Shown in pieces: positions 5,187 through 64,000 of a stretch of DNA of 64,000 nt. Source of the DNA: Bilabrum cf. latius (Eukaryota); assembly GCA_965178125.1 (NCBI GenBank), contig OZ237748.1:1-64000 (forward strand), in the 5' to 3' direction. The translations under genes were made by a program, and so were the position numbers. The notes under the pieces were generated by a model, which saw only the letters and a list, made by a program, of their open reading frames with translations, had not been told where the DNA came from and ran no database searches. Position 1 is the first letter of the stretch; each line of letters starts with the position of its first letter.

Positions 5187-5476
5187 CCCGCTGGACCAGT
5201 TCAAAACATCAAGCAGTGGGAATCACCTCCTATGGAGTTGCCCCTGCCTGTCTTCCCAGTGTGTATTGCCACATAATGACAATTATTACTGAGAATATCG
5301 GGGCACAGCTGTAGAACACAGGTGCCACCGAAATTCCGAACAAGTGAGAGCCTCACATCTGCGCTCGGACTTGCGACCAATACTACACAATCTCTCCGAT
5401 CTAAATCACTTCGTAACGTGCCTCCGTACCTACGGCACACAACTGACGGGCCCAGCGCCCACCTGCAGGAGGCTCG

Positions 5477-23029: not shown

Positions 23030-24590
23030 GCTTCCTTGGACGGTGCGCAACTCCGCCATCTACGGAACACGCTTCTTTTGCGGTGCCTGGTCCTGGCCTG
23101 CGATCCCTAGATCTAGATCTTACCATAGCCCCCATGGACGATGTACAACGCTACAATTCCTCTTCCCGCCGTAGGACAAGGTGTTGCCGCGTTCTCCTTG
23201 CTAGCAGAGCCATCCTCACCACACCGATGCCTATCATCTCATTTGACATCAACATTTGTAGGGCGGGCTCAAATAGTTTGTGATTTAGCTCAAGGGTATG
23301 TGGGCCTCTTAGTCAGCAGGGTGCCACGCGATTTCCACCCACTCATCCATCCCCCCCCCCGTCCTTCCATCCGACCCCCCCCCACCACACTGCCCGTGGG
23401 GCCCCGGGGTCACATGGTGGTGAGCAGTGTCCTGACTCCTGAGCGCACGTGCCACTTATTAAATCCCCCTCAGGATTGGTCTGCAGCACAAGACTGAGTG
23501 TGTTTAAGCCTTTACATTTCAAATGGAGCACCATTCTGGTGTGCAATGCGTGCTGTTGATCCTGTTCGTATGCCACGTATCGTTGTCGATGGCACAGTGA
23601 GAAGACTCCTTGACTTTGCTTGTAACGCATTCTCTCTAGTATTGGTACCTGACACACGCACGCAAATATCCGTCTTTGACCCTATATTTTTATTTTTCAA
23701 CTTTCAATTCTTGGCAGGTGCGACTCTGGTGTGAGCCATCGAATCAGGGCTTCACAGAAGTTCACACCCACTGGCACTCAGGGCTGCCAGTTGCAGCGAG
23801 CGTGTCCACGACATCCCTACGACATCCCTATGCGACTTCAGTGCTCACTTTCAGTACACATGCTTCAAATTATTGCAGTGGTCGTATAGTACAACGTCAC
23901 CTCTGGGAAATTTCTGCTACTATCGTGAAGGCAGAAGGGGTTGTAAGTAGACTGCTGTTTTCTGAGTTGTCATTATGTTCCACCAGTTCATCCGCATCTC
24001 TGATAAAGGGCACCTAAATTCATCGTTTTGACTTTGCAGCTGTTGCCTCCTCAAGGTCCTGGTGTAACGTGAGCGATCTGGTCTATCTACTGCATGTTGT
24101 ATTTCTGGCGGGATTTGGACATAAGTCAGCCTGATAGGCTTACATATCACGATTCGTATGTATTAGTTTCGATCCAATTGGATCAAGTCGTCTCAATTGG
24201 ACTTTCGGCAGCTATATAGTATCATGTGTGTGCGTGCTGGCAGTGTATTTGCGCAGTCTCGGAGTTCAAAGCTGGCTTCAATTCACGGGAGTTCGGAGAA
24301 CAACGTAAGAATTAAAATCATGCGATTCGAATCAGCTTCTGACACGTATTTACTTTGAGCTGTTGGTGCCCCATACCGTAGTGGGAGACGTAAAGCCATG
24401 TTTCAGGATCCAAACTTCTAAGTTCCTTTCGGATCGCAGTTTGTTTCCAGATTGTGTCGAAGTGGCTGGTAAGTTTTTTCTTTGAAAACATGCGATATGT
24501 TTATGGTTCGACTGAGGTGTTTCGCCTTCAGCGGAACTGGCAGTCAAGATCTGAGCTAGCACCTCTACAGATCTAGCCCTTACTTTGCAG

Positions 24591-36500: not shown

Positions 36501-36893
36501 GCCAACGAGGAGATGAACAAGGAGGCTGAGGAGCGCAACACGGCCATGGCTCGAGAGGCGGCCATGAGCATGGGCGCGGCTGGTTCCAGCATGGGCCAGT
36601 AGGAGGCCCTGGCGTCTTTGAGGAACTTCCGGTCTTCACGCAAAATGCCAGTGGGGTCTTCGGGCAAAGGACAAGGGGCGCAGCGCAAGACCTTTGGCGC
36701 CCTCAGGTCGTCGGGTCTGTCCGCCAGTGGCAGTGGGGGCTCTCGCCGCAAGTCTGTCGCCAAGCTGGCAGAAGTGAAGACCATGGGCAAGAGCGCCAGT
36801 CGAAACAAACTCAAGCTCGCCCCACTGAGCGCCAGTGCCGCTGCTCCTGTCCAAGCCCCGGTGGAGGACAACTCGGGTTCTGATAGCAACTGA
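24591..36893 (+). CDS. ~4100-aa cell-surface protein: Cys-rich (GCC2/GCC3, ephrin-receptor-like) repeats + cadherin repeats + IPT/TIG repeats + multi-pass TM region; N-terminal exon(s) upstream unresolved
   Basis: Twelve ORF-track pieces (24681 to 36618) share one frame, with 17 TAG from 24591 and a TGA end. Motifs: CPAGYYCP repeats; LDFE/LDYE, DxD and DxNExP cadherin motifs; GxNFG/PGVG IPT motifs; DYLQVL and several hydrophobic helices. A likely intron acceptor TTTGCAG ends at 24590. Confidence 0.9.
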
Positions 36894-40393: not shown

Positions 40394-40688
40394 TGCACGT
40401 GCCCGCTGTTTATGTGCAGTGGTAAACCGAACCGCAGATCTATTTGAAAGTACACGTTACTAAGTAGTACTACCCTTTCTCGCAGCGGGCGCCGGAGGGA
40501 ACGTGAACGCTGACGCTCCCCAGGGGGAAATGGGTCCCCAGGGTGGAGCTTAGGTGGTTTAGGCCATTGCAGCTGAAGCGTGAAGTCTGGTAGGTCCCGG
40601 GCCCTCGTTCCAGATGTTTCTTCGTGATAGCGTGCGTTTTTGAGTTGAGTCCACAAAATATCAGATCCCCCTTTCTCGCCCTCTTGAG

Positions 40689-44800: not shown

Positions 44801-47800
44801 CACCCCCCTGCCTCCCCTCCCCCCACTCTAAACCCCGCTCTGCTTCTGCTCCTGCCCCCCCTCATCCTCTTCCTCACCTACCCCCTCCCCATCCAGCATC
44901 GCCCACTCCATCAGCGACTGACCAACACCGTGCATGCTCTGGTGCACCCCTACCCCCGACTCACTGCCCCCCCTGCTGCTCATGTCCTCCGCGCCTGGAC
45001 CGTCCAACGATGGGAACGTAGACCCGGCACCGGCAGCCTGCGCCTGCGCGTTCCATCCGTGCATCTGACCTGCTCTGCCAGTTTGACCACCCTCAGATTC
45101 TCCGCTCCCAGCGGCCCCGATCGAGCCATCTCCCCGATGCACCACCTTGGGCGAAGTGATAGCATCCACCGCCGCGGCCGCTTTAGCCATGGCCACGGTG
45201 TCCAAACACGCCTGCATGTGCCTCAGCCCAAGGTGGCGCTGCAGTCGACTGCACCCGTCGGTCAGCAGGAGCACATAGGCTAGAGACCTGGTGCGCCGTG
45301 GCCCCAGTGCCCTTGAGACGACCTCCGCCAGCTCCCACTCGAGAGCTGCCCTCGATGGATCTCTCCTACTCGCGCGGTCCAGCCGTCTCCTGACTCTCTC
45401 TACCTCCTGGCTGGCCTCCAGGGCGCGGGCCAGCACCTCGGCCCTGACCTGCACCCTTTGCCACGTGTCCGCCCACTCGGCCCCCGTGCGGTGGGGGAAC
45501 AAGCTGCTCGTCGCAGTCCCCGTGGACACGTCCATGTACACGTCCACCCTGCTGCTGCCCTCGGGGAAATCGAAGCCCAAGTTGCTCAGAAAACGCTTCG
45601 TGTCGCTGAACGGGCCGTCGTATACCACCCGGCCCCCGCGTACCAGCAGCACCAGGTGGTCGCACACGTCTGCTATCTCCACCCTGGGCTGGTGCAGCAC
45701 CGCACACACGGTCAGGCCCTCCTTCCTGGCTAGCTTGGCCAGGTACCGCATGACCTGCAGCGACGTGGACGCATCCAGTCCGCTCGTGATCTCGTCGCAG
45801 AAGAGCACCCTGGGTCTGGCCACCAGCTCCACGCCGATGGAGACACGCTTACGCTCGCCGCCGCTGAGCCTCTGCCCCGCGGTGTCTTCCGCACCCACCA
45901 GCGACTCTGCTCTCTGCAGCACCTGCATCCTAAGCAGCGTCGTGTACCCGTGCTTGAGCACGCCTCTGACCCTCTCCTCCTCCATGTGGGCCCCCTGCCT
46001 GAGGCTGGGCCAGCAGGGGCAGCAGCACCAGAGGCAGGACTCCCAGGCGGTACGATCGTCTTGCTCGTTCCCCCCTACTGCCCCGCTGAGGGCAATTGAG
46101 CTGGGCGTGGCCGAGGAAGCCCGGCCCTTGCTCCTCTGGCTCTGCCTCGCCCCTGCTGCTCCTGTATCGAGGTGCTGGGAGGAGGGTCGGTGCAGGGGGG
46201 CAGCGGGTGCTGTGGCTGCCCTTCGCTCAATTGGCTCCGGAGCGGGCCTGCTTGGTGACTGCGGGTCTTGCTCAATAGAGCGGCGGTTCGCACCTTTGGA
46301 GTCATTTTGTGCACTGCTGCCATCGCCGGCGGGGTCTTGCCCTGCATCGCTCGATCCTTTCCTATCTGCGTCATCGGTGTCATCGAGTCCCACCCTCAGG
46401 CCCTGCCCTGCATCGCTCGATCCTTTCCTATCTGCGTCATCAGGGTCATCGAGTCCCACCCTCAGGATACCTGACGTGGCAAGCGCCTCCGCAGGTGTGA
46501 CGTCACTTAGTAGCACGTCGCTTTGAGGCACGAACGCTGACTAGTCCCGGAATGTGGCAGAGTCGCAGTCCTCCCGACCTGCTTTGCCAAGAGCCATGGA
46601 AGCGTCCATCCACCGCCCGTGCACACCCACCACGCCCTCGATGTCCGCGTAGGCCGCGGCACGGCCTGCGAGTGCATTCAGCAGCGTGGTTTTACCCGCT
46701 CCGGACTCTCCCAGGATCAGGGTCACCTTGCCTGCTGGCACCGTGCAGCTCACGTCGCTCAGTATGCGGGCGTTCTTGTTCCCCTTGGCGCTCACAGTGG
46801 CGCCCCTCAGCACGAACCCGATCCCGTCAGGGGCACCCGATGGACCCCTGCCGTGGCGATGGTACCTGCCGGGCTTTCTACTGTGTGTGGAGGGCCTCTT
46901 TCCTGTCCCACTGATCCTGCGGGGTGTTTGCGCAGCAGCAGCACCGGGAGACCCCTGGCCTGCATGTCTCAATATGCCTCTGGATGTGTCCTGCATCTCC
47001 CCTCGATTCTGAGATGCCTGCCTGCTCGGGTCCCCTTGTTGCTACTGGCTCTATCCCTGGCCGTCCGTCTGATCAGTGCCATCGATCTCACCAGCACCTT
47101 TGCTATCGTTCGCGCAATCTGCCGCAAGTGCGCTGGCGCTCGTGCTTGTGCTTGCAGATTTGCCGCCAGCGGAACCATCGCTACTGCTGCTGATGCTACT
47201 TTTACTACGCTCGGAGCCGTTACTATTCTCGTCCGTATAGTCTTCCATCGCCCCGTGCAGCCGCGCGCTGGCTCTTGCTCCTCCTGACGACTTGCCGTCG
47301 CTCCCGTCCACCTCCCCGGCCCTTGCCGCAGCTTCGAGGATTGCATCGTCTTTGTCTTCGTCATCGCGATCGACTTGCTCCTGCTCCCGACCTTCATCCT
47401 GGCCCTGGTCCTGCTCCTGATCGAAACCGTTGGGTGCGTCTCCACGCGCTCTTCTCCCCTGCAGATAGCTCCCACCGCCGCCCGTAGCACTCGTCACACC
47501 GCCTCCTACACGCACCCTCACCGAGTCATACCCAGCGATAGATCCTTGCCCAGAGCCAGTGTCTGCATCGCCGCCCTGACTATCCGCGTCATTCCCACTG
47601 GACCCACCCATTCCGATCGAGCCGGAGCCGGAGGCATCCTCCAATCTTGCACCGGCCCCGGAGCGATCACCTGCAGCCCCGGACTGCCCATCATCATCCT
47701 CGTCCTCCTCCTCCTCTTCACTTCCATCATCTTTTTCACAACCCCCTCGCTCGTCATCTGCTCCCTGCCTCTCCGTCTCCCTCTCCGTCTCCGTCTCCAA

Positions 47801-48598
47801 GCCGGGTCCCTGTCCCATGCCACCAGCGGCTCCCATCCCACTGGGCTGCACCCCCCCATCCAACACTCTCCCTACCCCCGGGTCATCTCCCCCCACGTCA
47901 TATCTGCCAGTCGACACCTCCGTCTCTGTCCACTCCGAGGATGCCTTGGACCTCGCTGCCTCGCTCTCGCTCTCGGCCTATTCTCGCAGCCTCTTCAGGC
48001 GGATCCTCGCTATCTTAGGGAGATAGATGGGACGCAGCCGCCGCACGACTACCGCGACTGCCTACGAGACACGAAGGTGCCTCTCATCCCGACAGCCGGC
48101 GAAGCCTGCCACTCCCGCCACCATGACGCCCAGGAATGCGACCACTGCCAGAGCCGTCGCTTCGCTTCTGGGCACGGAGCTGCCCTCGGGGCAAAGCGCG
48201 TAGGGTTCGCATGCGAGGGGCTCGGAGCTTCCAAACGGGCAAAAATACCCACCAGGACACCTAAAAATGTCCGTGGAGGTCGGGCAGAACGCTCCGGGGG
48301 GACAGACGACGTCGTCCACTGGTGGAATCTCGAGCGTGTCCGTTCCTGGGCAGTACAACCCCTTGCTCCAGCATGGCATGCAGTCAATTGCAAATGGTAG
48401 AATCGGTAGGCCGGCTAGTGACCGATTAGGATTGATCAGCGGGTCAAACTCGTACCCCACCCCCCCAAAGACAACTCGTCGCGGCGTGGACCCAGGTTCG
48501 CATGCCGCTTGGCTCCGTGCGATTCCAGGCAGCAGAACTACAACCGAGCCAAAAACCAATATCCAGGCGGCTCTGCTTTCGGCAAAGTGCATACGCAC
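41843..48598 (-). CDS. ~2250-aa ABCG/White-type half transporter with signal peptide, Cys-rich ectodomain and long low-complexity insertions (TAG read as Gln)
   Basis: Six pieces share one frame, with 8 TAG. Motifs: Walker A GESGAGKTT, Q-loop FVPQSD, signature LSGGERKR, Walker B VLFCDE, H-loop VLHQPR, then a C-terminal TMD. The exact 3' end is uncertain because GTATGAG after the last TAG could be a splice donor. Confidence 0.88.
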
Positions 48599-48728
48599 GA
48601 GGTGTTTGACTTATTTCTATCCAGTCGACGTCGACCTGCAACTCCGAATCTTTTGAGCAGATCCTAAATCCATCTGCTTGTCAGTCATCTCTCTTGAATG
48701 CGGAAGTGGAGCCTTGGTACTACAAAGT

Positions 48729-50837
48729 ATGGCTCGAGCTCGCCACTATGGTCTGGGGGAGATTTCTGAGGAGTTTGCAAGCAAGGGGTGTATTCTCAGT
48801 GTTCCTGTTGTGCCAAGAGACGACGCTGCACGTCTTCTGTAGGCGGCCCATGTAGGAGGGGCCGGTAGCTTGCCCAGTGGAAATGACCGTTTCAAGCAGC
48901 ACCTCGTGGTTCCATGCTTTGCGCGCTCGGTGCGAGCTCTTGCGCTGATACAAGCTACCCGAGCCTGCGTTGCGCCCAGCGGCGAGCCGCTGCTAGCTTG
49001 GAGCTCAGATTTTAACATTAAGCAACCGAAATCCGGTGGGTTTTACAGCTTGCACTAGGACGGGAAGTACGCAGGCCTGCATCCGGCTGAGCAGGTGCTC
49101 ACGGCGTGGCTCGCTCTCTCTGACGTGTCCAGACAGGAGGCCGGCCCGCTCGTGTATTGCCCCGGGTCTCACAAGCTGGGCATGCTGGAGCACGAGGAGA
49201 CAATCGATACCAAGCGCAAGCTCGGGTACAGCGAGACTCCAGTCCCGGCGGAATCTGCAGCCGGGCCGACAAGTGGCGCGTCCGCTCCGGCCCCATCAGA
49301 CCGAGCGGCTGGCACATCAGCCAACCTGAACCTGCTGAGCAAAGGACAGACCATCGTGCCAAGAACGGAGGAGGAAGCAGCCGCCCTCGCGTCCAATGAT
49401 GTGCATTGCACGCTGGCACCGGGGGAGGCCTGCCTGCACTCGTTTCTGCTCGCCCACAGGAGCGGGCCCAACCTGCTGGACTATCCCAGGGTGGGGCTGG
49501 CGGTGAGGTATATGGGCGGGGGCGTGATGCGGCACACGGGGGGCACTTGCAAGAAGAGGTACATGGGCGGGGGCGTGATGCGGCACACGGGGGGCACTTG
49601 CAAGAAGAGGTACATGGGCGGGGGCGTGATGCGGCACACGGGGGGCACTTGCAAGAAGAGGTACATGGGCGGGGGCGTGATGCGGCACACGGGGGGCCCT
49701 TGCAAGAAGACAGCAGAGGCAAGTAAAGAATACCCAGAGGAGCATAGCGAGGGTGAGGGTGAGGGTGATGGTCACGTTGCCAGTACATGCCCAGAAGCAG
49801 CCACTCTAGTGTGGGACAGCGGGAGGGTGGTGGGCGATCCCATCTTGCATGCGCTGGCAGTAGCAGCTGGGAGCATACCCACAGGTGGCAGCGGTGCCTT
49901 GGGTGGGGCTGCTTGCGATAGCGATGGAAGTCGAGGCGCAGCAGCAGCAGGAGCAGGGAGCTTAAGTTGTGGTGGGGCTGACTCATCCTGTGAGGACACT
50001 GCCGGCTTTGCCTCGGCCTTGGCATCTTACAGTGCATTGCACCCTAGGCAGAGGGAGGCCAGGCAGCTCGCGGTGCTGGGGAGGAGGATACTGAGGGCTG
50101 TCCGTGATGGCGGTGTCACGAGTGATGGAGATGATGCGATGAGTGAGACTGATGCAGAAGCCGGTGTGGATTTAGATGAAGGCAGGATGCACCCAGCGGA
50201 TGAGGCCAGGGTGCTGGGCGCTTTGTAGGCCCTGCAGTCTCGCCTGCACTTTTTGTTGGAGCCCTGTCCGTGGGAGGTATCAGGGGAGGTGGATCGTGAC
50301 ATCATCTTCATCGCGGGGGATGCTGGCGCGGGTGAGTCTAGCAAGCGAGATGAAACTACGTCTGAAGTGGCGGAGGCAGGTGGAGATGGACGAGATGATG
50401 GGCAAGGGGGCACAGAGGCGGAGGCAGGTGGAGATGGACGAGATGATGGGCAAGGGGGCACAGAGGCGGAGGCAGGTGGAGATGGACGAGATGATGGGCA
50501 AGGGGGCACAGAGGCGGAGGCAGGTGGAGATGGACGAGATGATGGGCAAGGGGGCACAGAGGCGGAGGCAGGTGGAGATGGACGAGATGATGGGCAAGGG
50601 GGCACAGAGGCGGAGGCAGGTGGAGATGGACGAGATGATGGGCAAGGGGGCACAGAGGCGGAGGCAGGTGGAGATGGACGAGATGATGGGCAAGGGGGCA
50701 CAGAGGCGGAGACATAGGCGAAAGTAGAGGCGGGCAGTCGTGTGCGGGCTGACCTAGAGCAGGCGAGGACCCGTGTGAGAGAGGCAACGCTACGGCTAGA
50801 GAACATGAATTACTTCCGGTTTGAGGGCGGTCGATGA
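48729..50837 (+). CDS. PhyH-family (phytanoyl-CoA dioxygenase-like) Fe(II)/2-oxoglutarate dioxygenase, 702 aa with repetitive C-terminal part (TAG read as Gln)
   Basis: ATG at 48729. Motifs: FNIKQPK..YSLH*DG (HQD), LTAWLALSD, GPLVYCPGSH, LAPGEACLH...HRSGPN...R. There are 4 TAG and a TGA at 50835. Confidence 0.88.
49506..49709. repeat. In-frame 51-bp coding tandem repeat x4 (RYMGGGVMRHTGGTCKK)
   Basis: Visible in both the DNA and the ORF track. Confidence 0.95.
50370..50711. repeat. In-frame 48-bp coding tandem repeat x7 (AEAGGDGRDDGQGGTE)
   Basis: Identical units start at 50370, 50418 and so on. Confidence 0.95.
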
Positions 50838-51002: not shown

Positions 51003-52643
51003 TCACTCGTCCTGGGACTCGTGTATATAAGTGAGCGCCTTCTCCAAGCTGGGCAACGGGTGTCCCTCAGGGGGGGCGTCAGAAGACGTCCACCATAGGC
51101 CATGGAATGTAGCCTGCTGCCTCAGGGATACGCCTTGTTCTACCTGCAACACCCTCGCCGTGGGCCACAGGTAGGACGTGTCGATGCTCCACAGGTACGC
51201 CCCGCTGTCCATGTCTACGAGAGCAAGATCTCCCGTGCGGTCGCACTCCTCCCCCGTGATGACGAGTGCGCACTTCTGGGCCTTGCCCCCGGTTTCCGAC
51301 TTCCAGTCTCCGCGATATCCCGACGCCACTAGGTTGCAGTCGTCCTGTAGAGTCAGACGGGTCGAGAAGGCGCCCTAGCGTTTCCCGACCGACTGCCCCA
51401 TGGGCAGCATCTGATCGTCCCACAGTGTGTACCACACGCGGGTAGATCGCTTAGCAAGCGCCTTGGGATCGCAGCGACGTGGAGCCATCCCTTCGATGGC
51501 CGCCTGCATCGCCGCCGTCTTGCGACCATTGCCGAAGGTCGTGTCGTCGTCAGGACTATCCAGGTCCGCAGACCCTGCAGACCACACGATGCCACCTCCC
51601 TTCTGGGACAGGACGGCGTCCCCGTCCCCCTGCAGACGAAGGGTGTCTGCACCCGGGTCCATCAGCGATGCAGGCACCCGCCAGATGTACTGCCCGGAGG
51701 CGCTGTCCACGATGGCCAGGTCGCCCTTGGTGTCGCACCCGTCCCCTGTGATGACGAGTGCGCACTTCCCCTCGGTACCCTTTCCCTTCGTGTTGGTCGC
51801 AAACCGCGCCTTGCCCCCTCGGTACACCATCAGGTTGCAGTCTCCCTGCATGCGCAGCTCGACCCCCTCCCCCTCGCCCGCCCTCAAGGCGGCCCCGGCT
51901 TGCAGCACCTGCCCCGGAGACAGCACATCGCCGTCGGTCACTTGGTGGTATGACGATTGCAAGGCCCCTGCATCGCACTGCAGGTTGTGCACATCCTCCC
52001 GCACTTGCTGATCAAAGTGGAACTTACCGATCCCCTGTGCGTGGCCCCCGGTCTCGGTGCTCCACAGCAGGTGCCCCCCTTCCTGAAGGAGAGCGGCATC
52101 GCCGTCCCTCTGGACCAAAAATGTGTCCACTTCTGGTGTGAAGATAGAGGATTGCACCCGCCAGATGTACCTGCCCGTGTCCGTGTCGATGATGGTCAGG
52201 TCTCCCTGGGTGCTGCACGATGCATCCGTCAAGACCAGCGCGCAATTGGCCTGCTTCTAGTCTCTACCAAAGCCGAAAATTTCCGACTTGTCCTTGCCAG
52301 AGATTACCAACTTGCAGTTATCCTGCACATACACCTTCGTCGAATTCTTGGACAAGGCGTTAACCAGCGGAGCCTTGGCGGAGTGTAGAATCTCGCCTTT
52401 CCGGAGCCTGTCGCCCTCTGCCGGCTTCCTCGCTGCCAAGGCGCTGACATCGCAGGAGTATGTGTAAACGTTGTCATAGTTGGGGTGGAGCGCATTGCTA
52501 TGGTGCGTGCTGCTGGCGCTGCCCGAGGCCGACGACATAGAGCCAGTGCTGCGAAGGTGCTGCTGGCCTGTTGCTCGTCGCCCGTGCACAGTGACCACCG
52601 AACAGGCGGCTAAAGCCAGCAAAATGGAAACGATGGATTGCAT
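51003..52643 (-). CDS. 546-aa secreted protein with about 3 bulb-type (GNA-like) lectin domains (TAG read as Gln)
   Basis: Signal peptide, then QxDxNxVxY-like motifs VQDNCKLVI, MQGDCNLMVY, LQDDCNLVA and LQGDGDAVL. Three pieces share a frame, are joined by 2 TAG and end in TGA. Confidence 0.82.
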
Positions 52644-52828
52644 CTCTACAAATGTCAGGTTGATGAGCCAGTTGGATCCCTTCGCACTGATGTAGAAGGC
52701 CCCAGGGAAGTGGGGGTGCCAGCGAAGACTCCGATGTCACACGGTGCCACAGACCCCCGCGAGGGGGGTGTACGGCCCCTGGCAGTGGCGCCGCAGCGGA
52801 ACTTTGGGCTGTGGCGGAGAGCGCCCCC

Positions 52829-54452: not shown

Positions 54453-55518
54453 AGTAAGCGCCTACTATAGCAGCATTTGGCAACGACATGATGCCGCCGA
54501 TCCTCACCTTCCTTACCCGACAACGCCCGGCATCGCTTCGCAGTGGCAAGTGCAGGGGGCGAATCAATTCAATTGTTGAAGACGATAGTACTAGGGGATC
54601 TAGCATCCGGCAAGTCGTGCTTTTTCCAGAGAGTGCTGGTGAGGTTACACACCAATGCGTCCAGGCCGCTCTTTGCACTGCAAACTAGCACTGCTGGCAG
54701 TCTAGATCTACCGGGATTGCTGCTCAGCGACAAATTCATTGCTCGCCTGCTCGATTTAAGTTGCAGGGGTGCGATTTTCCGAAGCAGAGTCCACCGACGA
54801 TAGGGATAGACTGCGGCCGCGGGACTGTCCAAGTCGACGGTCAAGCTCTCAATGTGGCCTTGTGGGATACAAATGGTAAGATTTAAGAAGAGCTTCCGTG
54901 CATGCGGGCAATCAAAGCCGCATGGTATCTGTGGAGCTTCGCATAGCTCCTACATGTCTCAAAGATGCGGACGAGTAGATCTACTGGGCCTTCAAGAAGC
55001 TTACGCAGGCCTGGAGGGATCATCGAGGATTCGCAAGGCGTGAGAGACTCAGCAGTATTTGCACGCCGTATTGTATGATCTGCGTATGTTCCGATTAGTA
55101 TGCATCAGGTTGTAATGCTTTGTTTTGAGCCAGCAGACACATGCGCGGCTCCCGCTGCGTCTTCATTGTCTTCGACCTGGCCTCGAGAGATTCATTCAGG
55201 ACGGTCCGATACTTCGTTGAAGAAGCCAGGGAGACTCTGGGAGACACCATCCCGATCGCCATGATTGGTACCAAGTCGGACCTCGTGGATAGGCGGGAGG
55301 TGCCAAGGGAAGAAGCCGAACGGAAAGCCAAAGAGCTCGGGGTTCTATACTACGAGGTGAGCTCGAAGACGGGGGAGGGGGTTGATGAGGCGGTGGAGGG
55401 GCTGCTTGAAGAGGCGCTGACAGACGAGGAGCGGGCAAAGGAGCGTCATTCCACAGAGACATCGCCGGACCTAGGAGACTAGGACAAGGCGCCATCATCG
55501 GGGTGCATCACAAGCTGA
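54453..55518 (+). CDS. Divergent Rab-like small GTPase, copy 1 (intron-containing)
   Basis: Exons encode KTIVLGDLASGKS (G1), PTIGID...LWDTN (G2/G3), IGTKSDL (G4) and EVSSKTG (G5). Reading through TAG 55480 gives a C-terminal CITS followed by TGA. The middle exon boundaries are not fully resolved. Confidence 0.8.
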
Positions 55519-56035
55519 TGGGTGGATTCGGGGGAGCAGCATTGCATCTACCATGCCATGTGAACATCAGGTGAAACAAAATAGCCAGATGTACTTCACT
55601 CTGTCAAGCAGGCAGCAAGGGCCACACGGGCGGCGAGGTGATGATCAATTGAACCAGAGGGCACATAAGATCGACAGTGCCCGAGCTGCAGACCTGGACG
55701 GCAGCAGCTATGCCGATTGGGTGGCATGTAGTGAGTGGGAAGGAGGGCATTCATTGCCTGAGAATTGGCCCCGGGGCTCAGACAAAACCGGAACTGCCAG
55801 CCATACGTTCGGCACTCAGGGGAATGCCCCTGAATGTAAGCTAGTTTTGCACTTCGAGATGGCGAGAACTTTTAAGTGAAACAGTAGTCATTTATTTGAG
55901 TAGATACCTTGATCATACCATGCGTCCTGTCGAAAAGTATCAGGAAAGTGAGCTTCAGCCTGGAAAGTCTTCAGCCAGACTAGCAAATTTCCATGAGAAT
56001 GCAGTTTTCTAGCACTCAATGAATCTGTTCCGCAG

Positions 56036-57495
56036 TGGTATGCATGCGAAAATGCAGGAAACATTGCTCGATTAAAGCAATGATGATGGGCAGTGATTCA
56101 TGCGGGCTCACGAGCTTCAGAAACAGAGTAGTTGTGAGACGCAGACCATATGCCGCGTTCGAGCAGGTACTGTACGGGTACGACATCAAGGTAGTGATTT
56201 TAATCTGCCGGTTATTTCAATATGCAGCGGACTCGATCTCCGACGGACACATCGTCCACCGTTGGAGTAGATTTCGAGCTTGCAGACACCTGTATACATG
56301 GTCAAAGAGTGGAATTGCAGCTCTGGGACACCAACACATAGAGTGAGCCGCGAATACGCAGTGATACCGCAACGATAAATGACGGCGACTGTCTGCTGAC
56401 AAGAGCACATAACGACAGCGTATCATGGCCCGCTTATTAATTTTCGCAGCCAGGTACAGGAGTATTTGTCGTTGGTGAGTACCCGAAGTGATTGTCAGAT
56501 CATTGAATTGGGCCCATAATGGTTGGTGAGGCCAGCAAGGTCTCTGAGATTGAGGTCACTCGGTGGGCGCAGGACCCGCTCGAGGAGCAGGCTCAGATGC
56601 GACGGAGCGATGCGGAGGAGTGCGAGAGAGAGAGAGAGAGAGAGAGAGGGCTGCATCTAGGGGGGGGAGGGTAGAGCAAAGGGAGGGGGGGACGACGGTT
56701 CACCGGAACGGGGGAGGAAATGGTGGAGGAAAAGATGATCGGTGGGGTCATTGGGTTGATGAGGCGGATAGGAAGGGGGAGGCACAGGCCGGGCAGGTGT
56801 GGGTTGGGCATGTGTGACGAGTGACTCGGATCAGGGGGATCGGATCACCGACCACATGCGGATGTGGAAGTTGAGAGGTCACAATTAGACTCGAGCGGCA
56901 ATCAAGCCGCGTGCTATTCGGGCGCTGAGGGGCAGCGTTCGCCAGTTTTCTTTTTTGGTAACTTTGAGGATGGGCTCTCGGAGGAAACCAACTGCAAAAT
57001 GTCAATTGAATTTGTAAATGCTTGGATTATGCCGTTCGCAGGCATTTACGGGGCTCCCGCTGCGTATTTATTTTGTTCAGTCTGACCGATAGTAGGTCCT
57101 TCAAAGAAGTGGACTCTCTCGTTGCGGATGCCAGGGAGGCGTTGGGAGGCACTATCCCAATCGCCATGATTTGTACCAAAGATGACCTGGTCGACGCTCG
57201 GCAGGTGTCACAGGAAGACGCCGAGCGGAAAGCTGAGGAGCTGGGCGTGCCATACTACGAGGTTAGCTCTAAAACTGGGAAGGGCGTTGATGAGGCGGTG
57301 CAAGGGCTGGTGCATGCTGCGCTGACAGACACGGAGCGGGCTAAGGAGCAGCGGGAGCTAGAGCGGGAGCGGGAGCGTGTTCTGGCCATGGCAAAAGGGC
57401 GGGAATGGGCCAAGGGGCAAGCAAAGGGGCAGCCAGGGCGATCTGCAGGAAGAGGTGAAAGCACAGGAACCACGTCTTGGAGCACAGTGAGTTGA
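56036..57495 (+). CDS. Divergent Rab-like small GTPase, copy 2 (degenerate P-loop, no C-terminal Cys)
   Basis: Exons encode IKAMMMGSDSCGLTS, STVGVDF...LQLWDTNT*, then HLRGSRCVFILF...CTKDDL...EVSSKTG, ending WSTVS-TGA. Confidence 0.72.
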
Positions 57496-57980
57496 GTAGT
57501 GGCATACATAGATCTGCTGACTGTGCACGCATTGATGGGTAATCGAACCAGGCTACCCATCAATCGTGCACATTGGTTCCGTCCGGAGCATCGCTCCACC
57601 GCGACGAATAGGCCTCCATCAGTCGGGGTGGGCTGCAGGCAACAAAAAGGTAGTTGCGTCAAGTAGATCCGGTCCATCATGTATCTTCTCAACGATCCTT
57701 TTGAATACTGATCCTTTTTTTGGATGTCATCCTTCCCGGGATTCTTCGTAAGCCGGAACCCTTTTCATCACGGTGGGCCCGTAGGTGGCGGAGGTCTTTA
57801 TCACATTTTCATAGCCTGCGAAAAACTACGCTGATATACATTGACGTAGTGATATGTGCTAGGCAACGAAACCTCAGGAGAGTGAGAACTAGCAAGTCCA
57901 GACAAGTCTAGCAAATTGGGCAACAGTTCTTGCCTGTATACACCCGCCACACTTTGATCTATCAAATCGCTACCCCGCAG

Positions 57981-58945
57981 TGGCAACTATGGAACAAGAA
58001 CTCACAACGCCGCCACAAATAATCAAAGCGGTAGTGCTTGGTAGCTATGTGTGTGGCAACACGTGCTTCTGTCGAACTGCATGTGTTAGTTGCTAACCCC
58101 AGGCTGCACCACAGTCCCTGCTCCACATGCGCTACACTTATCTCCAGTTGCCTATTTTGGCTTCATACGTCGAATCATCCCAGGGAAAGCCGTTTCATCG
58201 TGATACCAGTCCGACAATAGGAGCCTTTGAAGAGGTAGTTGACATTCGCGTGGGTGGTCAAACCGTTGATTTACGGCTATTCGACATATCAACCCATCGT
58301 GAGCTCGAAGCTATTGCTACAAAAATTAAATCAAAGTTCTTCGATTTGGGCCTTTGGCCGCGAACATACGCCACTTTGCTGAACGAATTAAATCCTTGCA
58401 GTGAGATACGAGAGTATTCGCGCCTTGTGAGGAAATGATTTGCAACAGATGCACTAATTTTATTTCAATTTATTGGTAATTGTGTATTCTCATATTCTTG
58501 CATCATCAGTTCCGTTCCAAATTGCAAAGCGCTGCGTCACGCCCGCTGCGTGTTCGCTATGTTCAGTCTCATTGATATGACGACATTCGAACTGGTGGAT
58601 GTACATATCGGCGATGCCAGGGAGACTCTGGGAGACACCATCCCGATCGCCATACTCGGGACCAAAGCCGACCTGATGGACGAGAGAGAGGTGACACGGG
58701 AAGAAGCCGAACGGAAAGCCAAAGAGCTCGGAGTTCTATACTACGAGGTGGGCTCGAAGACGGGGGAGGGGGTTGATGAGGCGGTGGAGGGGCTGCTTGA
58801 AGAGGCGCTGACTGACGAGGAGCGGACTAAGGAGCAGCGAGACCTAGAACGATACGAAGACGACGCACATGGTAGGGAGAAGGAGGCGGGCAGCAAGGTG
58901 CCACCTGGCGGAGTGGGATCTTCATCATGGTGCGTCGTGAGCTAA
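57981..58945 (+). CDS. Divergent Rab-like small GTPase, copy 3 (degenerate G1/G3)
   Basis: Exons encode IIKAVVLGSYVCGNT, PTIGAF...LRLFDIS, then LGTKADL...EVGSKTG, ending in the CaaX-like CVVS followed by TAA. Confidence 0.75.
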
Positions 58946-59039
58946 GGGGCCCGAACCGTCTTCTTGGCGCTCACACTAGTCTAGGCACACATACCCATTT
59001 ACATTCGATTTTATTACAAAACTGCGGATACTTATCTAT

Positions 59040-62000
59040 TTACAAGCCCCCCATGACCTCTGTCGCCCCGCTTGCATCCAGAGCCGCCTGCAGCTCACGG
59101 GCCAATTCCTCCAGCAGCACTGTCCTGGTGAGCAGCCTGGACTAGCGCTGGAGCCAGACCGGCATGTCGGCCTTGCCCCTGTACACAGGGATATGGGCCG
59201 TGCTGCCAGTCTGTAATTCTACCCTTTGGTCCTGTAGCACCCACAAGGCAGGCCCATCCTGCGACGATTCGGGAGCGTTGATCTAGGACCGCTGGCACCG
59301 CAGCGCCCCCTGCACCTGTGCCTCTGCATCTGCTGCCGATGGCACCTATATCTCACCACGATTCCTCACACCCCCTTCGTCCTGGCTTTCTCCACCTGTC
59401 GATCCTGTCTCCACCAGCGCGCCAATCTGCCCCGCACTGGCCCCCACCGCAGGGTACTCACTTCCGATGGCCTCCATGGTTGGCAGAGAGAGACCTAGCC
59501 GCTGCCTAGCCTTTAGCAGCGCTACCAGCAGGGCGCGACACAACCCACCATCCTCTCCATCACTCGTCACACTTGAAGTTCCACGCCGTGTAGCCCCTGG
59601 ATCGTCACCCCACAGCAGTGCCTTCAGCAATCGCGCCCCTTCCCCCCGTTTAGCCAACACCTCCACCAATCCATCAACCAATCCATCCTCGCCACCCTTC
59701 GCCTCCACCTCAGTGCCTGCCTCCATTCCCGCCCCTGCCTCCATCTCTGCTGCTCGAGACGCCACCCGCCTCACCAGCGCCCCCGCCACTCCCGCGGTCC
59801 AAATGAGCACCGGCAGGCTCCCCTGGTCCAAGGCACCCTGCAGCACTGCCTCCAGCGCCCGCTGCAGCCTGAGCAAAAGGGCAGTCGGCCGCACCTGCAG
59901 GTAGATACTATGATCCAAGGAGTCGCCCTTGGCCTTGCCGCTGCCATCGCCGAGGCTCCCACTTCTCATCACCTGCACAGCGTACGAGGGCAGCAGCGCC
60001 ACCTGCTTGGATGCCTCCTGCAGGGATGCGATCGCGCCCTGGAGGTGTGACGAGTGAGCACGATCACCACTGGGGCTCTCATCTTCGCCATCGTTCCCCT
60101 CCACGGGTGCATCACCCTGCAGCGCGGACAGCGGCAGCATGGCCCGGCCCCTGGGCACGGCGATCCAACCGGCATGCAGCCCGCCTGCATCACCATCACC
60201 ATCACCATCACCCTCGTCCTCGTCCTACCCCACTTTGCCAGCGGCACTCTCTTCTTTCCCATCAGCTGCACCGCCACCTCCTCGCACCGCCTTCGCCTCG
60301 AACAGCTGAGCGTCCACCACCGTATCCCCGGACTGCAGCCAGGCCCGGATCAGGTGCAGGGCGCACACAGCCGCTGTCCCCGCCTTTGCACCCGCCCTGC
60401 CCTCCCCCACACCCGCACCACCCAGTGCAGGCGCACCCCCCACACCCCCAACACCTTCGAGCACCCCGATGGCTAGATCGAGCGGTCCTCCTGTGGCCGC
60501 CAGACCTAGCACGCCCAGCCGACGGATGGCAACAGCTCCTTGCAGCTGGGCCCCTGCCCCTGCTCCCGCCCCGCTGGCAGTGCACAGCGGCACTGGGCGC
60601 GCCCGCACTACCCCACCAGGCCCCACCTCCATCGTCATCGCCATCTCATCCCCGTCCCCGGACCCACTCGTCACACTGCCAATACCCGCTGCCCCGCACG
60701 CCGCCTCCATGAGCTCGAGCTGAGCATGCACCCACACGCAGGCAGACGCGGCGGCGGCTTCCCCCCTCTTTCCCACAGAGGCCCAGTGACCCCAGCATGA
60801 CCCGCGCCCTGATGGCCTATCACCCCCTGCACCAATCCCTGCCCCTGACCTCTCCCCACCCCCCAGCCAGCAGCTCCTCATCAGCCGCATCAGGTCCCAC
60901 GCAGCCGCACCCGCGCCCAGTGCACCACCCCCACGCCGAGCAGCCCCGTGCGGCTGCCCAATGGCCCGCCCCCATCCCTCCGGCCACTGCACCGCGCCCC
61001 CAAGCGACACATCCAGCCCCTTTCCCTCTCCCCCTGCATCCGCTCCTGCCCCCCCGCCCGCCCTCGAGGCCCCACCGGAGCCGACTGCAGCGTCGCCCCC
61101 GGATGCCCGACCAAGCAGCGCGCCCAGCACCTGCACCTGCACCCGCATCGCGAAGCTGGCCCTAGCCCATGCCCCTGCCCCCTCCTACCACTCCCTCAGT
61201 CGCCGCATGAATCGAACAGGAGGAAGCAACCCCCCCTCAGGTGACGGCACCCCGAGGGGGAGGGACGCAAAGGCGCCCGCCGCCCCCACCGCCACCAGCC
61301 AGGCAAGGGGCGGCTGCTGGCCCACCTTGATCCCACTCGTCACACCTTCTGACGCGAGCGGTCTCCCTCTGCCGTTGTCCCCCATGACCCCATCGCCCCC
61401 AGGGGTCGAACCCGCCCCCACGGTGGGGTCACGTTTCTCCAGGCCGAACGCGTCCCCCCACAGCAGACGAGCTACCACCACCCTGCCGCCCCCATGCAGC
61501 AGGGCACGCATCGCACGCACGCACACGGCACCCACGCCCGCGTCCAGCCCCAGCGCACTCTCGAGCCCGTCCTGCGCCAGTGCCCCCACCGGCACCGCCC
61601 TCTCTCTCTGCGCCTGCATGCCCCCTGCCCCCTGCCCACCCGATCCATGCATCCCCTCCTCGTCCTCGTCCTCGTCCTCGCCATCAGACCCCCCCGCCCC
61701 TACACCCCCCTCACCCGTGCCGTAGCCACCCCCCCCTATCTCCCCCTCCCAATCCTCTCTCACCTCGTCCGTGCCAGTCCACAGCAGCCTGCCCAGCAGA
61801 TCCACGGCGGAGAAATCGCTGAACGTGCCCTGGTCGGCCTTCACCAGCCTCGTCTGGAGCAGCGCCCGCACTGCCTGTGCCCCGCCGCTTTCAACCCCAC
61901 CCGACACACCCGACGCACTCGCTCTCCCGCTCTCACTCTCGCTTCCAAGGCACGCCAGCTCCCAAAACTCGCCCAGGGTCCGCGCAGTTGCCGCCGCTGA

Positions 62001-63683
62001 CCCCGCCATCAGCATAGCCAAGGCCTCCCTCCGCAGTGCATTCGGGAGGTAGCCTGGGTCATCCCACACCGGCTTGAATTCGTCCTCCTACCCAGCTGCA
62101 TTTGGGCCCATGCCACTTCCACCTCCAACACCAACGCCGTCCTCTTCTTCTTCTTCTTCTTCCTCTTCCTGCTTCGCCCCGATGAAGGACAGCAGGGAGT
62201 CCACCACGCCACCTCCTATCTCTTTGCTGGAACTAGAGTCACCTCCCGACTCATCGGCGGCGGCACCGGCACTGGCACTGCTCGTGCGATGCCCGTCCAG
62301 AGCGCCCGCAGCGACCTGCAAAGGGGCGCTCAATCCACCGGTGGACTCCCCCGCCCCTTTGGCCACGTCCTCCGCCGTCATACCCTCGGGCAGGCAGCCC
62401 ATCGCCGCAACCGCAGCCCCCTGGCCCCCGTGCCGCAGCTCGTCACGCAGGAACGGCCCGCTGCCCAGCGTGCCAGGGAGACTGGCCGAAGAGCTCGATG
62501 TCAGCGATGCTGATGCTAATGCTAATGATGGCAACGCACCCGCAGATCCACGGTCACCTTTGGTCGATCGTGTCTCGCCAGCTGGCTCCTCCCCTTCCCT
62601 CTCCTCTTCCACCTCCTCATGCTGCCAGTCGCTGGCCAATCTGGCCCTCCCCTGCCCCTTGGCGTCCAGAAACCTCCTCCGCAGCACGCCAAGCATCTGC
62701 ACCGGTGCCCTGACCGCATCGGGATGTGCCAGCATGTGAGCCAGGGGTGGCAAAGGAGTGTCCGCCCCTGCTCCCATCACCATCCCTGTCCCTTCCCCTT
62801 CCCCTGCCCCCGCCTCCTCCCCAAGGAGAGCCTCCAAACTCACGCCCTCCCCAAGCTGGCATAGCCCAGCATCCGCCGCGGCCCGCTCCGCCGCCAGCTG
62901 CAGTGCCATGGCCACAGTCCCACACCGTGCCATGCCCGCGGGAGAATCCGCCTGGCATGCCATACCCACTCCAATGGACCATTCAGGCGATCGACTGGCC
63001 GCCCATGCGCCCCGCCACGGGCCTAGATCCACTGGGATATCCAAGGATGCGGACGAGGACGAGGACGAGGACGAGGATGGGGCGCCTGCAGCACCACCAG
63101 CACTTGGGGCCCCCCGAGCTATCACATCTCCTGGATCGGTGTGACGAGCAATATCTTGGACCCCGGCGGCTGCATCGATCGCTCGCGAGTCCTGCTCTTC
63201 TCGCATGGCCCGCACATCGACAGGCACCCCCAGCCACATGCGACCGGCCCGAGGCCCATGCGAGCGCAGCCAGATGCCCGCCGCGGCTTCCTCGGCGAGA
63301 GGGGCTGCGGCCTAGGCCCACAGCCGCAGCAAGCCCGATGAAGCGGCTGAATTTACGGACTTGTGACCGGCCTTGCGGCTGCCTGCTATTCCAATTTGGA
63401 CCTGCTTGCTCATGGCTGTCTGCAGCTTCGCGAGACCTCTAGCGAAACGTCGCTCTCGCTCCTTTCGTCGAGATGGGCTCCAGAACTCGACCGGCCTCCG
63501 TGGAATGGTGTAGGTTACAGAAATAGGAATCATTGGTAGCTTATGGTCAGTCTTGTCGTGCTACACGTCTCCGACTGGATTCGGCTCGCTGCATTCCGCT
63601 TGGCTGCCGTCCTCTGTTCGTAACGCGTCCAAGTCCAGCGAGTTGATGGCGAACTACATCCATGAAGAAACAGTGGACGACAT
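59040..63683 (-). CDS. 1547-aa Gly/Ala-rich protein of unknown function (TAG read as Gln)
   Basis: Pieces 63312, 62088, 61185, 60225 and 59346 share a frame. The frame is open from ATG 63683 to TAA at 59040-59042, with 9 TAG and no internal TAA/TGA. Confidence 0.8.
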
Positions 63684-64000
63684 GTCAATAGATGTATCCC
63701 TATGTTTTTACTGTACGACCTTGTTTCAGTTTGTGTGACATATACCAGACTTCTAAAAATGTGCACCGTACCCCTGTTTGAAAGAGCGAGAACTGCAACT
63801 CAGGTCAATACGCTAGGATGCCAACGCTTCGGGAGGAAACCATTAAAGAATTTGGAGACGATGCTACGAAAGACCTGTTCGGTCTGCTCGGATGCACTGC
63901 CAAGAGCTCGCCAGCCGAACTACGACGCGGTTATCTGCGCTGCTCGCTGCGATACCATCCCGACAAGGGCGGAGATCCAAACAAATTTCGGGTAGTCAGC

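What the first reader, a model, noticed from the sequence alone, without database searches (positions are those of the whole stretch)
55480..59042. TAA and TGA remain stops, so UAG is uncoupled from UAA
Rab copy 3 ends CVVS-TAA, where the prenylation motif has to be C-terminal. The convergent 1547-aa gene also ends in TAA. Rab copy 1 gains its CITS-TGA prenylation motif only if TAG 55480 is read through. Most known reassignments change UAA and UAG together. Uncoupling implies an eRF1 that recognises UAA and UGA but not UAG, plus a CUA-anticodon tRNA (inference). Only two well-supported TAA ends lie in this window.
Basis: partly seen in the sequence, partly recalled or inferred. Interest (0 to 1): 0.85.

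Follow-up and report, generated by a model that had tools for sequence, protein, structure and literature searches.

The report
UAG-means-glutamine code, UAA/UGA still stops
This stretch of a GC-rich protist genome reads the stop codon TAG as glutamine while still ending its genes at TGA and, less often, TAA, a rare but already described kind of genetic code.

Summary
TAG 55480 lies 11 codons upstream of a CITS-TGA end in Rab-like copy 1. Copy 3 ends CVVS-TAA at the homologous position. The convergent 1547-codon gene ends in TAA.

The reading holds within the window. Seven long ORFs (11,610 codons) carry 64 in-frame TAG, 0 TAA and 0 TGA. The other five frames carry 22-48 TAA and 74-254 TGA each. 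About 18 TAA would be expected if TAA were glutamine like TAG.

TAG aligns with glutamine at two strongly conserved sites: 10 of 10 homologues and 129 of 147 aligned stretches. It also swaps with CAG/CAA in orthologues on two metagenome contigs, which carry in-frame TAG too. A spliced RNA contig keeps TAG 55480 unchanged.

Ten modelled gene ends are 8 TGA and 2 TAA.

This is the UAG=Gln, UAA/UGA=stop code that NCBI table 15 gives. It has been reported for Iotanema, Protocruzia and some phyllopharyngean ciliates, so it is a new member of a known kind at most.

The organism is unidentified; the best named homologues are from Cafeteria.

A tRNA(CUA), the eRF1 and genome-wide stop use could not be tested, because no genome is held.

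The parts
54453..55518 (+). Rab-like gene copy 1, 205 codons. Exons: 54453 | 54544-54637 | 54766-54874 | 55008-55039 | 55137-55518. The start codon is split A|TG by the first intron. The gene ends CITS-TGA.
   Evidence: All four GT..AG joints are seen in contigs of X5 and X7 (the first also in X6) and are absent from DNA run X2. The spliced frame is open. Pfam Ras E 1e-20.
55480..55482 (+). In-frame TAG of copy 1, 11 codons upstream of the TGA stop. It must be translated for the CITS end to be made.
   Evidence: The spliced X5 contig covers 55225-55947 with 0 differing letters.
55516..55518 (+). TGA stop of copy 1, directly after Cys-Ile-Thr-Ser.
56044..57495 (+). Rab-like copy 2, 227 codons. 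Exons: 56044-56133 | 56228-56342 | 56450-56474 | 57042-57495. It ends STVS-TGA, with the cysteine lost.
   Evidence: Joints 56133/56228 and 56342/56450 are seen in X5, X6 and X7. The last intron is inferred. The model's frame is open. Pfam Ras E 4e-17.
56339..56341 (+). In-frame TAG of copy 2 (WDTNT-x). It sits where Ras-family GTPases carry the switch II glutamine of DTAGQ; that motif is recalled, not taken from a call.
57989..58945 (+). Rab-like copy 3, 223 codons. Exons: 57989-58084 | 58184-58298 | 58402-58426 | 58510-58945. It has no TAG and ends CVVS-TAA.
   Evidence: The model is built by paralogy with copies 1 and 2. All introns are GT..AG and the frame is open. Pfam Ras E 6e-15. No joint for this copy was among those listed.
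58943..58945 (+). TAA stop of copy 3, aligned with the TGA of copy 1.
58094..58096 (+). TAA inside the inferred 99-base first intron of copy 3 (58085-58183). It would be in frame if that intron were kept.
   Evidence: The intron position matches the RNA-supported introns of copies 1 and 2.
59040..63707 (-). Convergent ORF of 1555 codons (1547 from the first ATG at 63683-63681). It has 9 in-frame TAG and ends in TAA (59042-59040). No known domain.
   Evidence: Contigs of X5, X6 and X7 lie on it. No homologue of its last 250 residues was found.
24555..36893 (+). Single exon of 4112 codons. By reading of the translation it holds cadherin-like and IPT-like repeats and a multi-pass membrane end; no domain search was run on it. 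It has 17 in-frame TAG, 0 TAA, 0 TGA, and ends in TGA. The TAG at 35631 falls in a column that is Gln in 129 of 147 aligned stretches.
41843..48610 (-). ABC transporter gene of 2255 codons with 8 in-frame TAG, ending in TGA. One TAG lies two codons before the stop (41851-41849).
48729..50837 (+). PhyH-family dioxygenase gene with 4 in-frame TAG, ending in TGA. The TAG at 49056 sits in the iron-binding H-x-D motif, where homologues have H-Q-D.
5447..10252 (+). ORF of 1601 codons with 20 in-frame TAG, ending in TGA. No known domain. It lies between telomere-repeat arrays.
37805..40456 (-). ORF of 883 codons with 4 in-frame TAG, ending in TGA. No known domain.
51003..52736 (-). Lectin-like gene of 577 codons with 2 in-frame TAG, ending in TGA.
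   Evidence: The B_lectin match is below Pfam's cut-off.

Best explanation
The eukaryotic part of the window comes from an organism whose nuclear genes are read with UAG as glutamine, UGA as the main stop and UAA as a minor stop. This is what NCBI table 15 gives.

Shown here:
- TAG is frequent inside long, conserved, transcribed reading frames.
- TAG stands where relatives have glutamine.
- TAA and TGA never occur in frame and lie at the ends of all ten modelled genes.

Inferred from established knowledge (the argument of Panek et al. 2017):
- UAG is decoded by a tRNA-Gln with anticodon CUA, which cannot pair with UAA.
- The release factor eRF1 has lost its grip on UAG while keeping UAA and UGA.
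For: 1. ORF structure. The longest ORF is 1059 codons by the standard code and 4112 with TAG read. Reading TAA or TGA instead gives no gain.

2. Codon counts. In 7 ORFs (11,610 codons) there are 64 in-frame TAG, 0 TAA and 0 TGA. The other five frames hold 22-48 TAA, 74-254 TGA and 67-99 TAG. CAA/CAG is 103/365 = 0.28, so about 18 TAA would be expected if TAA were a glutamine codon like TAG.

3. TGA as the only stop. P0001, P0003, PhyH and the lectin gene contain no TAA between their bounding TGAs. In the other genes TAA appears only upstream of the start methionine or as the terminal codon.

4. TAG reads as glutamine.
- The PhyH H-x-D site is Q in 10 of 10 homologues that cover it and in 3 of the 4 PDB alignments shown.
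- The P0001 site at 35631 is Q in 129 of 147 aligned stretches from the 150 best proteins.
- Summed log-odds over 6 TAG columns give Q +10.5 bits; the next best is R at -5.5.
- Of the 20 alignment columns that hold a TAG in the window gene or in its orthologues on contigs L001 and L002, 6 have CAG or CAA in another sequence, and one has TAG in two sequences.

5. RNA. Contigs of runs X5, X6 and X7 carry GT..AG joints that DNA run X2 lacks. A spliced X5 contig covers TAG 55480 with no differing letter.

6. Gene ends. Copy 1 (CITS-TGA) and copy 3 (CVVS-TAA) align codon for codon. The ten modelled gene ends are 8 TGA and 2 TAA.

7. Relatives. L001 and L002 also carry in-frame TAG: 11 in 1499 codons, 2 in 621, and 1 in a 562-codon IBR/RING gene. 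All three ORFs end in TGA.
Against: - TAA as a terminator rests on two genes. One of them, the 1547-codon gene, has no homologue to fix its C-terminus. The other, copy 3, has a degenerate P-loop, none of its introns was among the joints listed, and it lies in a stretch of low contig depth.
- Copy 3's model needs a 99-base intron, inferred by paralogy only, that contains an otherwise in-frame TAA at 58094.
- The ABC transporter has a TAG two codons before its TGA. That TAG could be the real stop if TAG were ambiguous.
- The tool labels X5 'RNA? (probably DNA)', and X6 and X7 as RNA only by guess.
- No tRNA gene, no eRF1 and no genome-wide sample could be examined.
- The ORFs were picked as TAA/TGA-free stretches. 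The zero counts are therefore independent only to the extent shown.
Confidence: 0.85

Rival explanations
1. The usual coupled code (UAA and UAG both glutamine, UGA the only stop), with TAA simply rare because the genome is GC-rich.
For: TAA is rare in every frame of these GC-rich genes (22-48 per 11,610 codons). Antisense frames run for more than 3000 codons without a TAA. TGA ends 8 of the 10 modelled genes.
Against: There are 0 in-frame TAA where about 18 are expected from TAG x CAA/CAG and where the other frames hold 22-48. Copy 3's TAA sits exactly where copy 1 has TGA, right after a CAAX-type box. Reading TAA through lengthens the 1547-codon gene by only 22 codons, and no other gene is lengthened beyond its start methionine.
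Confidence: 0.04
2. An ambiguous, position-dependent code in which TAG is glutamine inside genes but can also end translation near the 3' end, as described for UAR in Condylostoma and Blastocrithidia.
For: The ABC transporter has TAG-GTA-TGA at its end, so TAG could be its true stop. Terminal TAG cannot be recognised in a 64-kb window when TAG is read through by construction.
Against: Copy 1's TAG lies 11 codons upstream of its stop. It is followed by frame-preserving homology to copy 3 and by the CAAX-type box. By my arithmetic, the in-frame rate of 0.55% predicts about 1.65 TAG within the last 30 codons of 10 genes; 2 are seen, so there is no depletion near the ends. All ten modelled genes reach a TGA or TAA without a long tail.
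Confidence: 0.09
3. There is no code change. The TAGs are pseudogene lesions, assembly errors, sites edited in the RNA, or leaky read-through under a standard code.
For: The window is partly chimeric: bacterial DNA at 1-3200 and stacked telomere arrays. Copies 2 and 3 have degenerate GTPase motifs.
Against: There are 64 TAG but no TAA or TGA in 11,610 codons. TAG sits at conserved glutamine columns. The same holds in two independent metagenome contigs. Contigs of X5 cover TAG 55480, 48840 and 49056 with no differing letter, and DNA run X2 agrees.
Confidence: 0.02

Closest known systems
UAG=Gln with UAA/UGA as stops: Iotanema spirale (Fornicata), Panek et al. 2017, PMC5304391. The same code is reported for Protocruzia tuzeti and two phyllopharyngean ciliate lineages (PMC11687900, Discussion). 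It is what NCBI table 15 gives; its name 'Blepharisma nuclear code' is recalled.
   Same: UAG is read as glutamine, while UAA stays a stop together with UGA. The inferred mechanism is also the same: a tRNA-Gln(CUA) plus an eRF1 that no longer binds UAG (PMC5304391, section 9).
   Different: In Iotanema UAA is the primary stop (abstract). Here TGA ends 8 of 10 genes and TAA 2, as expected for a genome of about 58% GC. The organism is neither shown to be a ciliate nor a fornicate; the best named homologues of one of its proteins are from the stramenopile Cafeteria (42% identity). Here there is genomic DNA with introns, whereas Iotanema rested on transcriptome data.
Other UAG-only reassignments: rhizarian exLh (UAG=Leu; PMC5304391), Scotinosphaera (UAG=Ser) and some phyllopharyngeans (UAG=Leu), as listed in the Discussion of PMC11687900.
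   Same: UAG is uncoupled from UAA, and UAA is kept as a stop.
   Different: The amino acid differs. Here glutamine scores +10.5 bits, leucine -8.8, and serine is not among the six best.
Coupled UAR=Gln codes: hexamitin diplomonads, ulvophycean green algae, oxymonads, many ciliates, and Amoeboaphelidium protococcarum as cited in PMC5304391, PMC11687900 and PMC6299283.
   Same: TAG is read as glutamine, and TGA is a stop.
   Different: In those codes TAA is glutamine too. Here there is no in-frame TAA in 11,610 codons, and TAA ends two genes.
Prenylated Ras-superfamily GTPases with a C-terminal CAAX box (general knowledge, recalled).
   Same: Copies 1 and 3 have Cys at the fourth position from the end (CITS, CVVS). 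Their last exons match Pfam Ras and the best solved relatives are Rabs.
   Different: Most Rabs end in CC or CXC rather than CAAX (recalled). Copy 2 has lost the cysteine. Copies 2 and 3 lack the P-loop lysine. None of the three keeps DTAGQ as such. Prenylation itself is not shown.

Membership tests
UAG=Gln, UAA/UGA=stop nuclear code (NCBI table 15 type) | UAG occurs in frame inside conserved protein-coding genes. | tested here: met
   64 in-frame TAG in 7 ORFs. The longest ORF grows from 1059 to 4112 codons. TAG lies inside the PhyH and ABC domains.
UAG=Gln, UAA/UGA=stop nuclear code (NCBI table 15 type) | UAG positions correspond to glutamine in homologues. | tested here: met
   Q in 10 of 10 homologues and in 129 of 147 aligned stretches. 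Q scores +10.5 bits against -5.5 for the next residue. TAG swaps with CAG/CAA in 6 orthologue columns. Four of the six scored columns are variable and carry little weight.
UAG=Gln, UAA/UGA=stop nuclear code (NCBI table 15 type) | UAA is not used as a sense codon. | tested here: met
   0 in-frame TAA in 11,610 codons, against about 18 expected and 22-48 in the other frames. Genes are not lengthened when TAA is read through. This holds for the window only.
UAG=Gln, UAA/UGA=stop nuclear code (NCBI table 15 type) | UAA terminates genes at homology-supported C-termini. | tested here: inconclusive
   Two TAA ends. Copy 3's is supported by alignment with copy 1's CAAX-TGA end. The 1547-codon gene has no homologue. 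The sample is too small for a rule.
UAG=Gln, UAA/UGA=stop nuclear code (NCBI table 15 type) | UGA is a stop and not a sense codon. | tested here: met
   0 in-frame TGA against 74-254 in the other frames. 8 of the 10 modelled genes end in TGA, as do 3 of 3 ORFs on L001/L002.
UAG=Gln, UAA/UGA=stop nuclear code (NCBI table 15 type) | A tRNA-Gln with anticodon CUA is present, and no tRNA has anticodon UUA. | not testable with these tools
   ARAGORN found 0 tRNA genes in the window and 0 in L001/L002. Rfam found no match. No genome is held.
UAG=Gln, UAA/UGA=stop nuclear code (NCBI table 15 type) | The N-terminal domain of eRF1 is altered at the stop-codon-reading motifs. | not testable with these tools
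   eRF1 is not in the window, and no genome is held.
Ambiguous, position-dependent stop/sense codes (Condylostoma or Blastocrithidia type) | The same codon also ends genes, and it is depleted just upstream of true stops. | tested here: inconclusive
   2 TAG lie within the last 30 codons of 10 genes, against about 1.65 expected, so there is no depletion. One of them is 2 codons before a TGA and could itself be a stop.
Ras-superfamily small GTPase with a CAAX prenylation box | Ras-family domain. | tested here: met
   PF00071 matches with E 1e-20, 4e-17 and 6e-15 for the three last exons. The best PDB matches are Rab2A and Rab6A.
Ras-superfamily small GTPase with a CAAX prenylation box | Intact G1 motif GxxxxGK[ST] and the switch II DxxGQ glutamine (motifs recalled). 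| tested here: not met
   Copy 1 has GDLASGKS but WDTNGL. Copy 2 has GSDSCGLT and WDTNT-TAG. Copy 3 has GSYVCGNT and FDISTH. Only copy 1 keeps G1. Only copy 2 would keep the glutamine, and only if TAG is Gln.
Ras-superfamily small GTPase with a CAAX prenylation box | Cys at the fourth position from the C-terminus. | tested here: met
   Copy 1 ends CITS and copy 3 ends CVVS. Copy 2 ends STVS, with the cysteine lost. Prenylation itself was not tested.

The most novel reading that the evidence does not exclude
The window organism and the organisms behind metagenome contigs L001 and L002 form a clade of non-ciliate, non-fornicate protists, possibly heterotrophic stramenopiles near the bicosoecids. 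In this reading the clade acquired the UAG=Gln-only code independently, and the case is not yet in print. Because genomic DNA exists for it, it would allow the predicted tRNA-Gln(CUA) and the eRF1 change to be read directly. That could not be done for Iotanema or the rhizarian exLh in 2017.
Probability: 0.3. Interest if true: 0.6.

Novelty: new member of a known kind. Interest (0 to 1): 0.4.

Why it matters
Cases in which UAG and UAA have parted ways are few, and they are the natural experiments for how eRF1 tells the two codons apart. A further lineage with genomic DNA, introns and RNA data would add an independent replicate. It would also let the tRNA(CUA) gene, the glutaminyl-tRNA synthetase and eRF1 be read directly.

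There is a practical side too. Gene callers using the standard code cut this organism's proteins at every TAG. Public gene calls P0004 and P0145 stop exactly at TAG positions. Any annotation of this genome and of its metagenomic relatives therefore needs table 15.

Tried and rejected
- Whole genome: none is held.
- tRNA and Rfam scans of the window, and a tRNA scan of L001/L002, found nothing.
- Sequencing runs: no listed holder is on record as RNA. X5, X6 and X7 are RNA by guess, and I treat them as RNA-derived only because they carry GT..AG joints that X2 lacks.
- No contig listed reaches the TAA of the 1547-codon gene; the nearest stops at 59058. No joint for copy 3 was among those listed, and 5 joints and 2825 pieces were not shown.
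- Homologues of the last 250 residues of the 1547-codon gene: none among proteins of 137-438 residues.
- The ABC-domain search gave only generic ABC hits and no help with the lineage.
That step was dropped.
- Pfam found nothing for P0003, the 1547-codon ORF, the 883-codon ORF or the ORF at 52614-53855.
- Literature: six searches found no paper describing a nuclear UAG=Gln code in a stramenopile or bicosoecid. Since the organism is unidentified, this does not show that the case is unpublished. Karpov et al. 2013 on Amoeboaphelidium was not available, and the papers that cite it give UAR=Gln. Supplements were not seen.
- My first, 18-base intron for copy 3 was rejected as too short. The model with a 99-base intron at the paralogous position replaced it.
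Full report
**What is in the window**

The window is eukaryotic nuclear DNA of about 58% GC with GT..AG introns. The exception is its first 3.2 kb, which carries bacterial-type genes. No whole genome is held, so everything below rests on the 64 kb, on two related metagenome contigs and on public protein and run collections.

**The observation**

- TAG at 55480.
- TGA at 55516, directly after Cys-Ile-Thr-Ser.
- TAA at 58943, directly after Cys-Val-Val-Ser.
- TAA (minus strand, 59042-59040) at the end of an ORF of 1555 codons, 1547 from the first ATG.

The three tandem genes belong to the Ras family. Their last exons match PF00071 with E 1e-20, 4e-17 and 6e-15, and the nearest solved structures are Rab2A and Rab6A.

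Contigs of runs X5, X6 and X7 carry GT..AG joints that DNA run X2 lacks. These give the intron-exon structure of copy 1 and the first two introns of copy 2. With them, and by paralogy for copy 3, all three genes give open frames of 205, 227 and 223 codons.

In the DNA alignment of the last exons, copy 1's TGC ATC ACA AGC TGA lies opposite copy 3's TGC GTC GTG AGC TAA. The only gap between TAG 55480 and that end is 18 bases long, so the frame is kept. The TGA of copy 1 and the TAA of copy 3 are therefore homologous stops behind a homologous CAAX-type box, and the box of copy 1 can be made only if TAG 55480 is translated. A spliced, hence RNA-derived, X5 contig covers 55225-55947 without a single differing letter, so the TAG is not edited away.

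**TAG is a sense codon throughout**

- By the standard code the longest ORF is 1059 codons. With TAG read through it is 4112, followed by 2255, 1601 and 1555. Reading TAA or TGA through leaves the maximum at 1059.
- The long ORFs include an ABC transporter and a PhyH-family dioxygenase, and a giant membrane protein with 17 in-frame TAG.
- Public gene calls made with the standard code break exactly at these codons. P0004 ends just before a TAG of the PhyH gene. P0145, from a relative, ends just before the TAG at 35631.

**TAG means glutamine**

- The TAG at 49056 sits in the H-x-D motif of the dioxygenase. All 10 homologues that cover the column have Q, as do 3 of the 4 PDB alignments shown; the fourth has D.
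- The TAG at 35631 falls in a column that is Q in 129 of 147 aligned stretches from the 150 best of 2794 hits. The rest are L 12, M 4, K 1 and I 1.
- Four further TAG columns are variable. Summed over all six, glutamine scores +10.5 bits and the next residue, arginine, -5.5.
- Two JGI metagenome contigs, L001 and L002, carry orthologues of the giant gene at 57% and 68% amino-acid identity, with their own in-frame TAGs. Of the 20 alignment columns that hold a TAG in any of the three sequences, 6 have CAG or CAA in another, and one has TAG in two sequences. The remaining columns are scattered over many residues in variable stretches.
- In copy 2, a TAG stands where Ras-family proteins have the switch II glutamine. 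The motif itself is recalled.

**TAA and TGA are not sense codons**

- In the seven long ORFs (11,610 codons) there are 64 in-frame TAG, 0 TAA and 0 TGA. Each of the other five frames holds 22-48 TAA, 74-254 TGA and 67-99 TAG.
- CAA/CAG is 0.28, so a TAA read like TAG should have appeared about 18 times.
- These ORFs were found as TAA/TGA-free stretches, so I repeated the scan with TGA as the only stop. Four genes (7016 codons, 43 TAG) run from TGA to TGA without any TAA. In the others TAA lies only upstream of the start methionine or is the terminal codon, with at most 22 further codons before a TGA.
- The ten modelled gene ends are 8 TGA and 2 TAA. Three more ORFs on L001 and L002 end in TGA.

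**What speaks against, or stays open**

  - The 1547-codon gene has no known domain, and no homologue of its last 250 residues was found.
  - Copy 3 has a degenerate P-loop, and none of its introns was among the joints listed.
  - Its first intron (58085-58183, 99 bases) is inferred from the paralogues and holds a TAA that would be in frame if the intron were kept.
- The ABC transporter ends TAG-GTA-TGA, so an ambiguous code in which TAG sometimes terminates cannot be excluded. Against that reading, TAG is not depleted near gene ends: 2 are seen within 30 codons of 10 stops, against about 1.65 expected from the in-frame rate. Copy 1's TAG is also followed by conserved coding sequence.
- The tool marks X5 as 'RNA? 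(probably DNA)'. I rely only on its spliced contigs.
- No tRNA gene was found in the window or in the two contigs, and eRF1 is not here. The mechanism, a tRNA-Gln(CUA) plus an eRF1 blind to UAG, therefore remains the textbook inference spelled out by Panek et al. (PMC5304391, section 9).

**Comparison with what is known**

- Uncoupling of UAG from UAA was first described in 2017 for a rhizarian (UAG=Leu) and for Iotanema spirale (UAG=Gln, with UAA the primary stop). I read the abstract, section 9 and passages of PMC5304391.
- The Discussion of PMC11687900 (passages) adds Scotinosphaera (Ser), Protocruzia tuzeti and phyllopharyngean ciliates (Gln, Leu).
- NCBI table 15 gives exactly this reading; the tools translated TAG as Q under it.
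- The present case differs in having TGA as its main stop and in its source. The best named homologues of the giant protein's membrane end are cadherin-domain proteins of the bicosoecid Cafeteria, at 42% identity, and the telomere-type repeat is CCCTAA/TTAGGG. This is a hint, not a placement.
- Six literature searches found no stramenopile with this code.

**Verdict**

The code is UAG=Gln with UGA and UAA as stops. It is a known kind of code, in what may be a new lineage that includes at least two metagenomic relatives. Interest is moderate.

Noticed in passing
window 1-3200: A stretch of 42% GC with closely packed minus-strand ORFs of bacterial type: an ECF sigma-70 factor with DUF6596, a YCII protein and an SRPBCC/polyketide-cyclase protein. 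The sigma-factor gene ends in TAG by the standard code. The stretch abuts a telomere-repeat array at 3441, so it looks like a chimeric join in the assembly rather than part of the eukaryote.
   Followed up: partly
window 3441-4403, 12447-13178, 17565-17754, 18247-19258, 20942-21646: Five arrays of (CCCTAA)n, all in the same orientation. They are interleaved with tandem repeats of 326, 155, 339 and 53 bases and with a duplicated segment (the ORF beginning at 11713 reappears at 22390). This may be stacked chromosome ends or interstitial telomere arrays. These arrays explain the strong strand asymmetry of TAA and TAG counts over the whole window.
   Followed up: partly
window 5447-10252 (+): An ORF of 1601 codons between telomere arrays. 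It has the highest TAG density in the window (20 TAG), a lower GC3 (0.55) and no Pfam match. It may be a subtelomeric or mobile-element gene.
   Followed up: no
window 55225-56549: One spliced X5 contig runs from the last exon and 3' region of Rab-like copy 1, across an 88-base GT..AG intron (55948-56035), into the exons of copy 2. Either the tandem genes are co-transcribed or their untranslated regions overlap.
   Followed up: no
window 53931-54305 versus 50200-50837: A partial duplicate of the 3' end of the PhyH gene lies just upstream of Rab-like copy 1. One CAG of the parent copy is a TAG in the duplicate (ALQSRL versus AL-TAG-SRL). Copy 1's start codon is split A|TG by its first intron.
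   Followed up: partly
window 57341-58674: Contig depth over most of Rab-like copy 3 is about 5-7 in DNA run X2, against 40-800 in the flanks, and it is low in X5-X7 too. Copy 3 may be missing or divergent in part of the sequenced material. The tool warns that contig depth is a poor measure.
   Followed up: no
window 49505-49710 and 50369-50711: In-frame tandem repeats of 51 bases (4 copies) and 48 bases (7 copies) lie inside the PhyH-family gene. An X5 contig skips 288 bases of the second array, which is most likely a copy-number variant and not an intron.
   Followed up: no
L001 1-9433 and L002 1-4942: Two JGI metagenome contigs come from related organisms (57-68% identity in the orthologous giant gene). 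They also carry in-frame TAG, including 1 in an IBR/RING E3-ligase gene on L001 (5322-7007, minus strand). All three ORFs end in TGA, so the code is shared by a group of organisms.
   Followed up: partly
window 54453-58945: The three Rab-like paralogues have unusual nucleotide-binding motifs. Only copy 1 keeps the P-loop lysine. None has DTAGQ as such, and copy 2 encodes the switch II glutamine position with TAG. The central part of the last exon is nearly identical between copies 1 and 3, which suggests gene conversion.
   Followed up: partly
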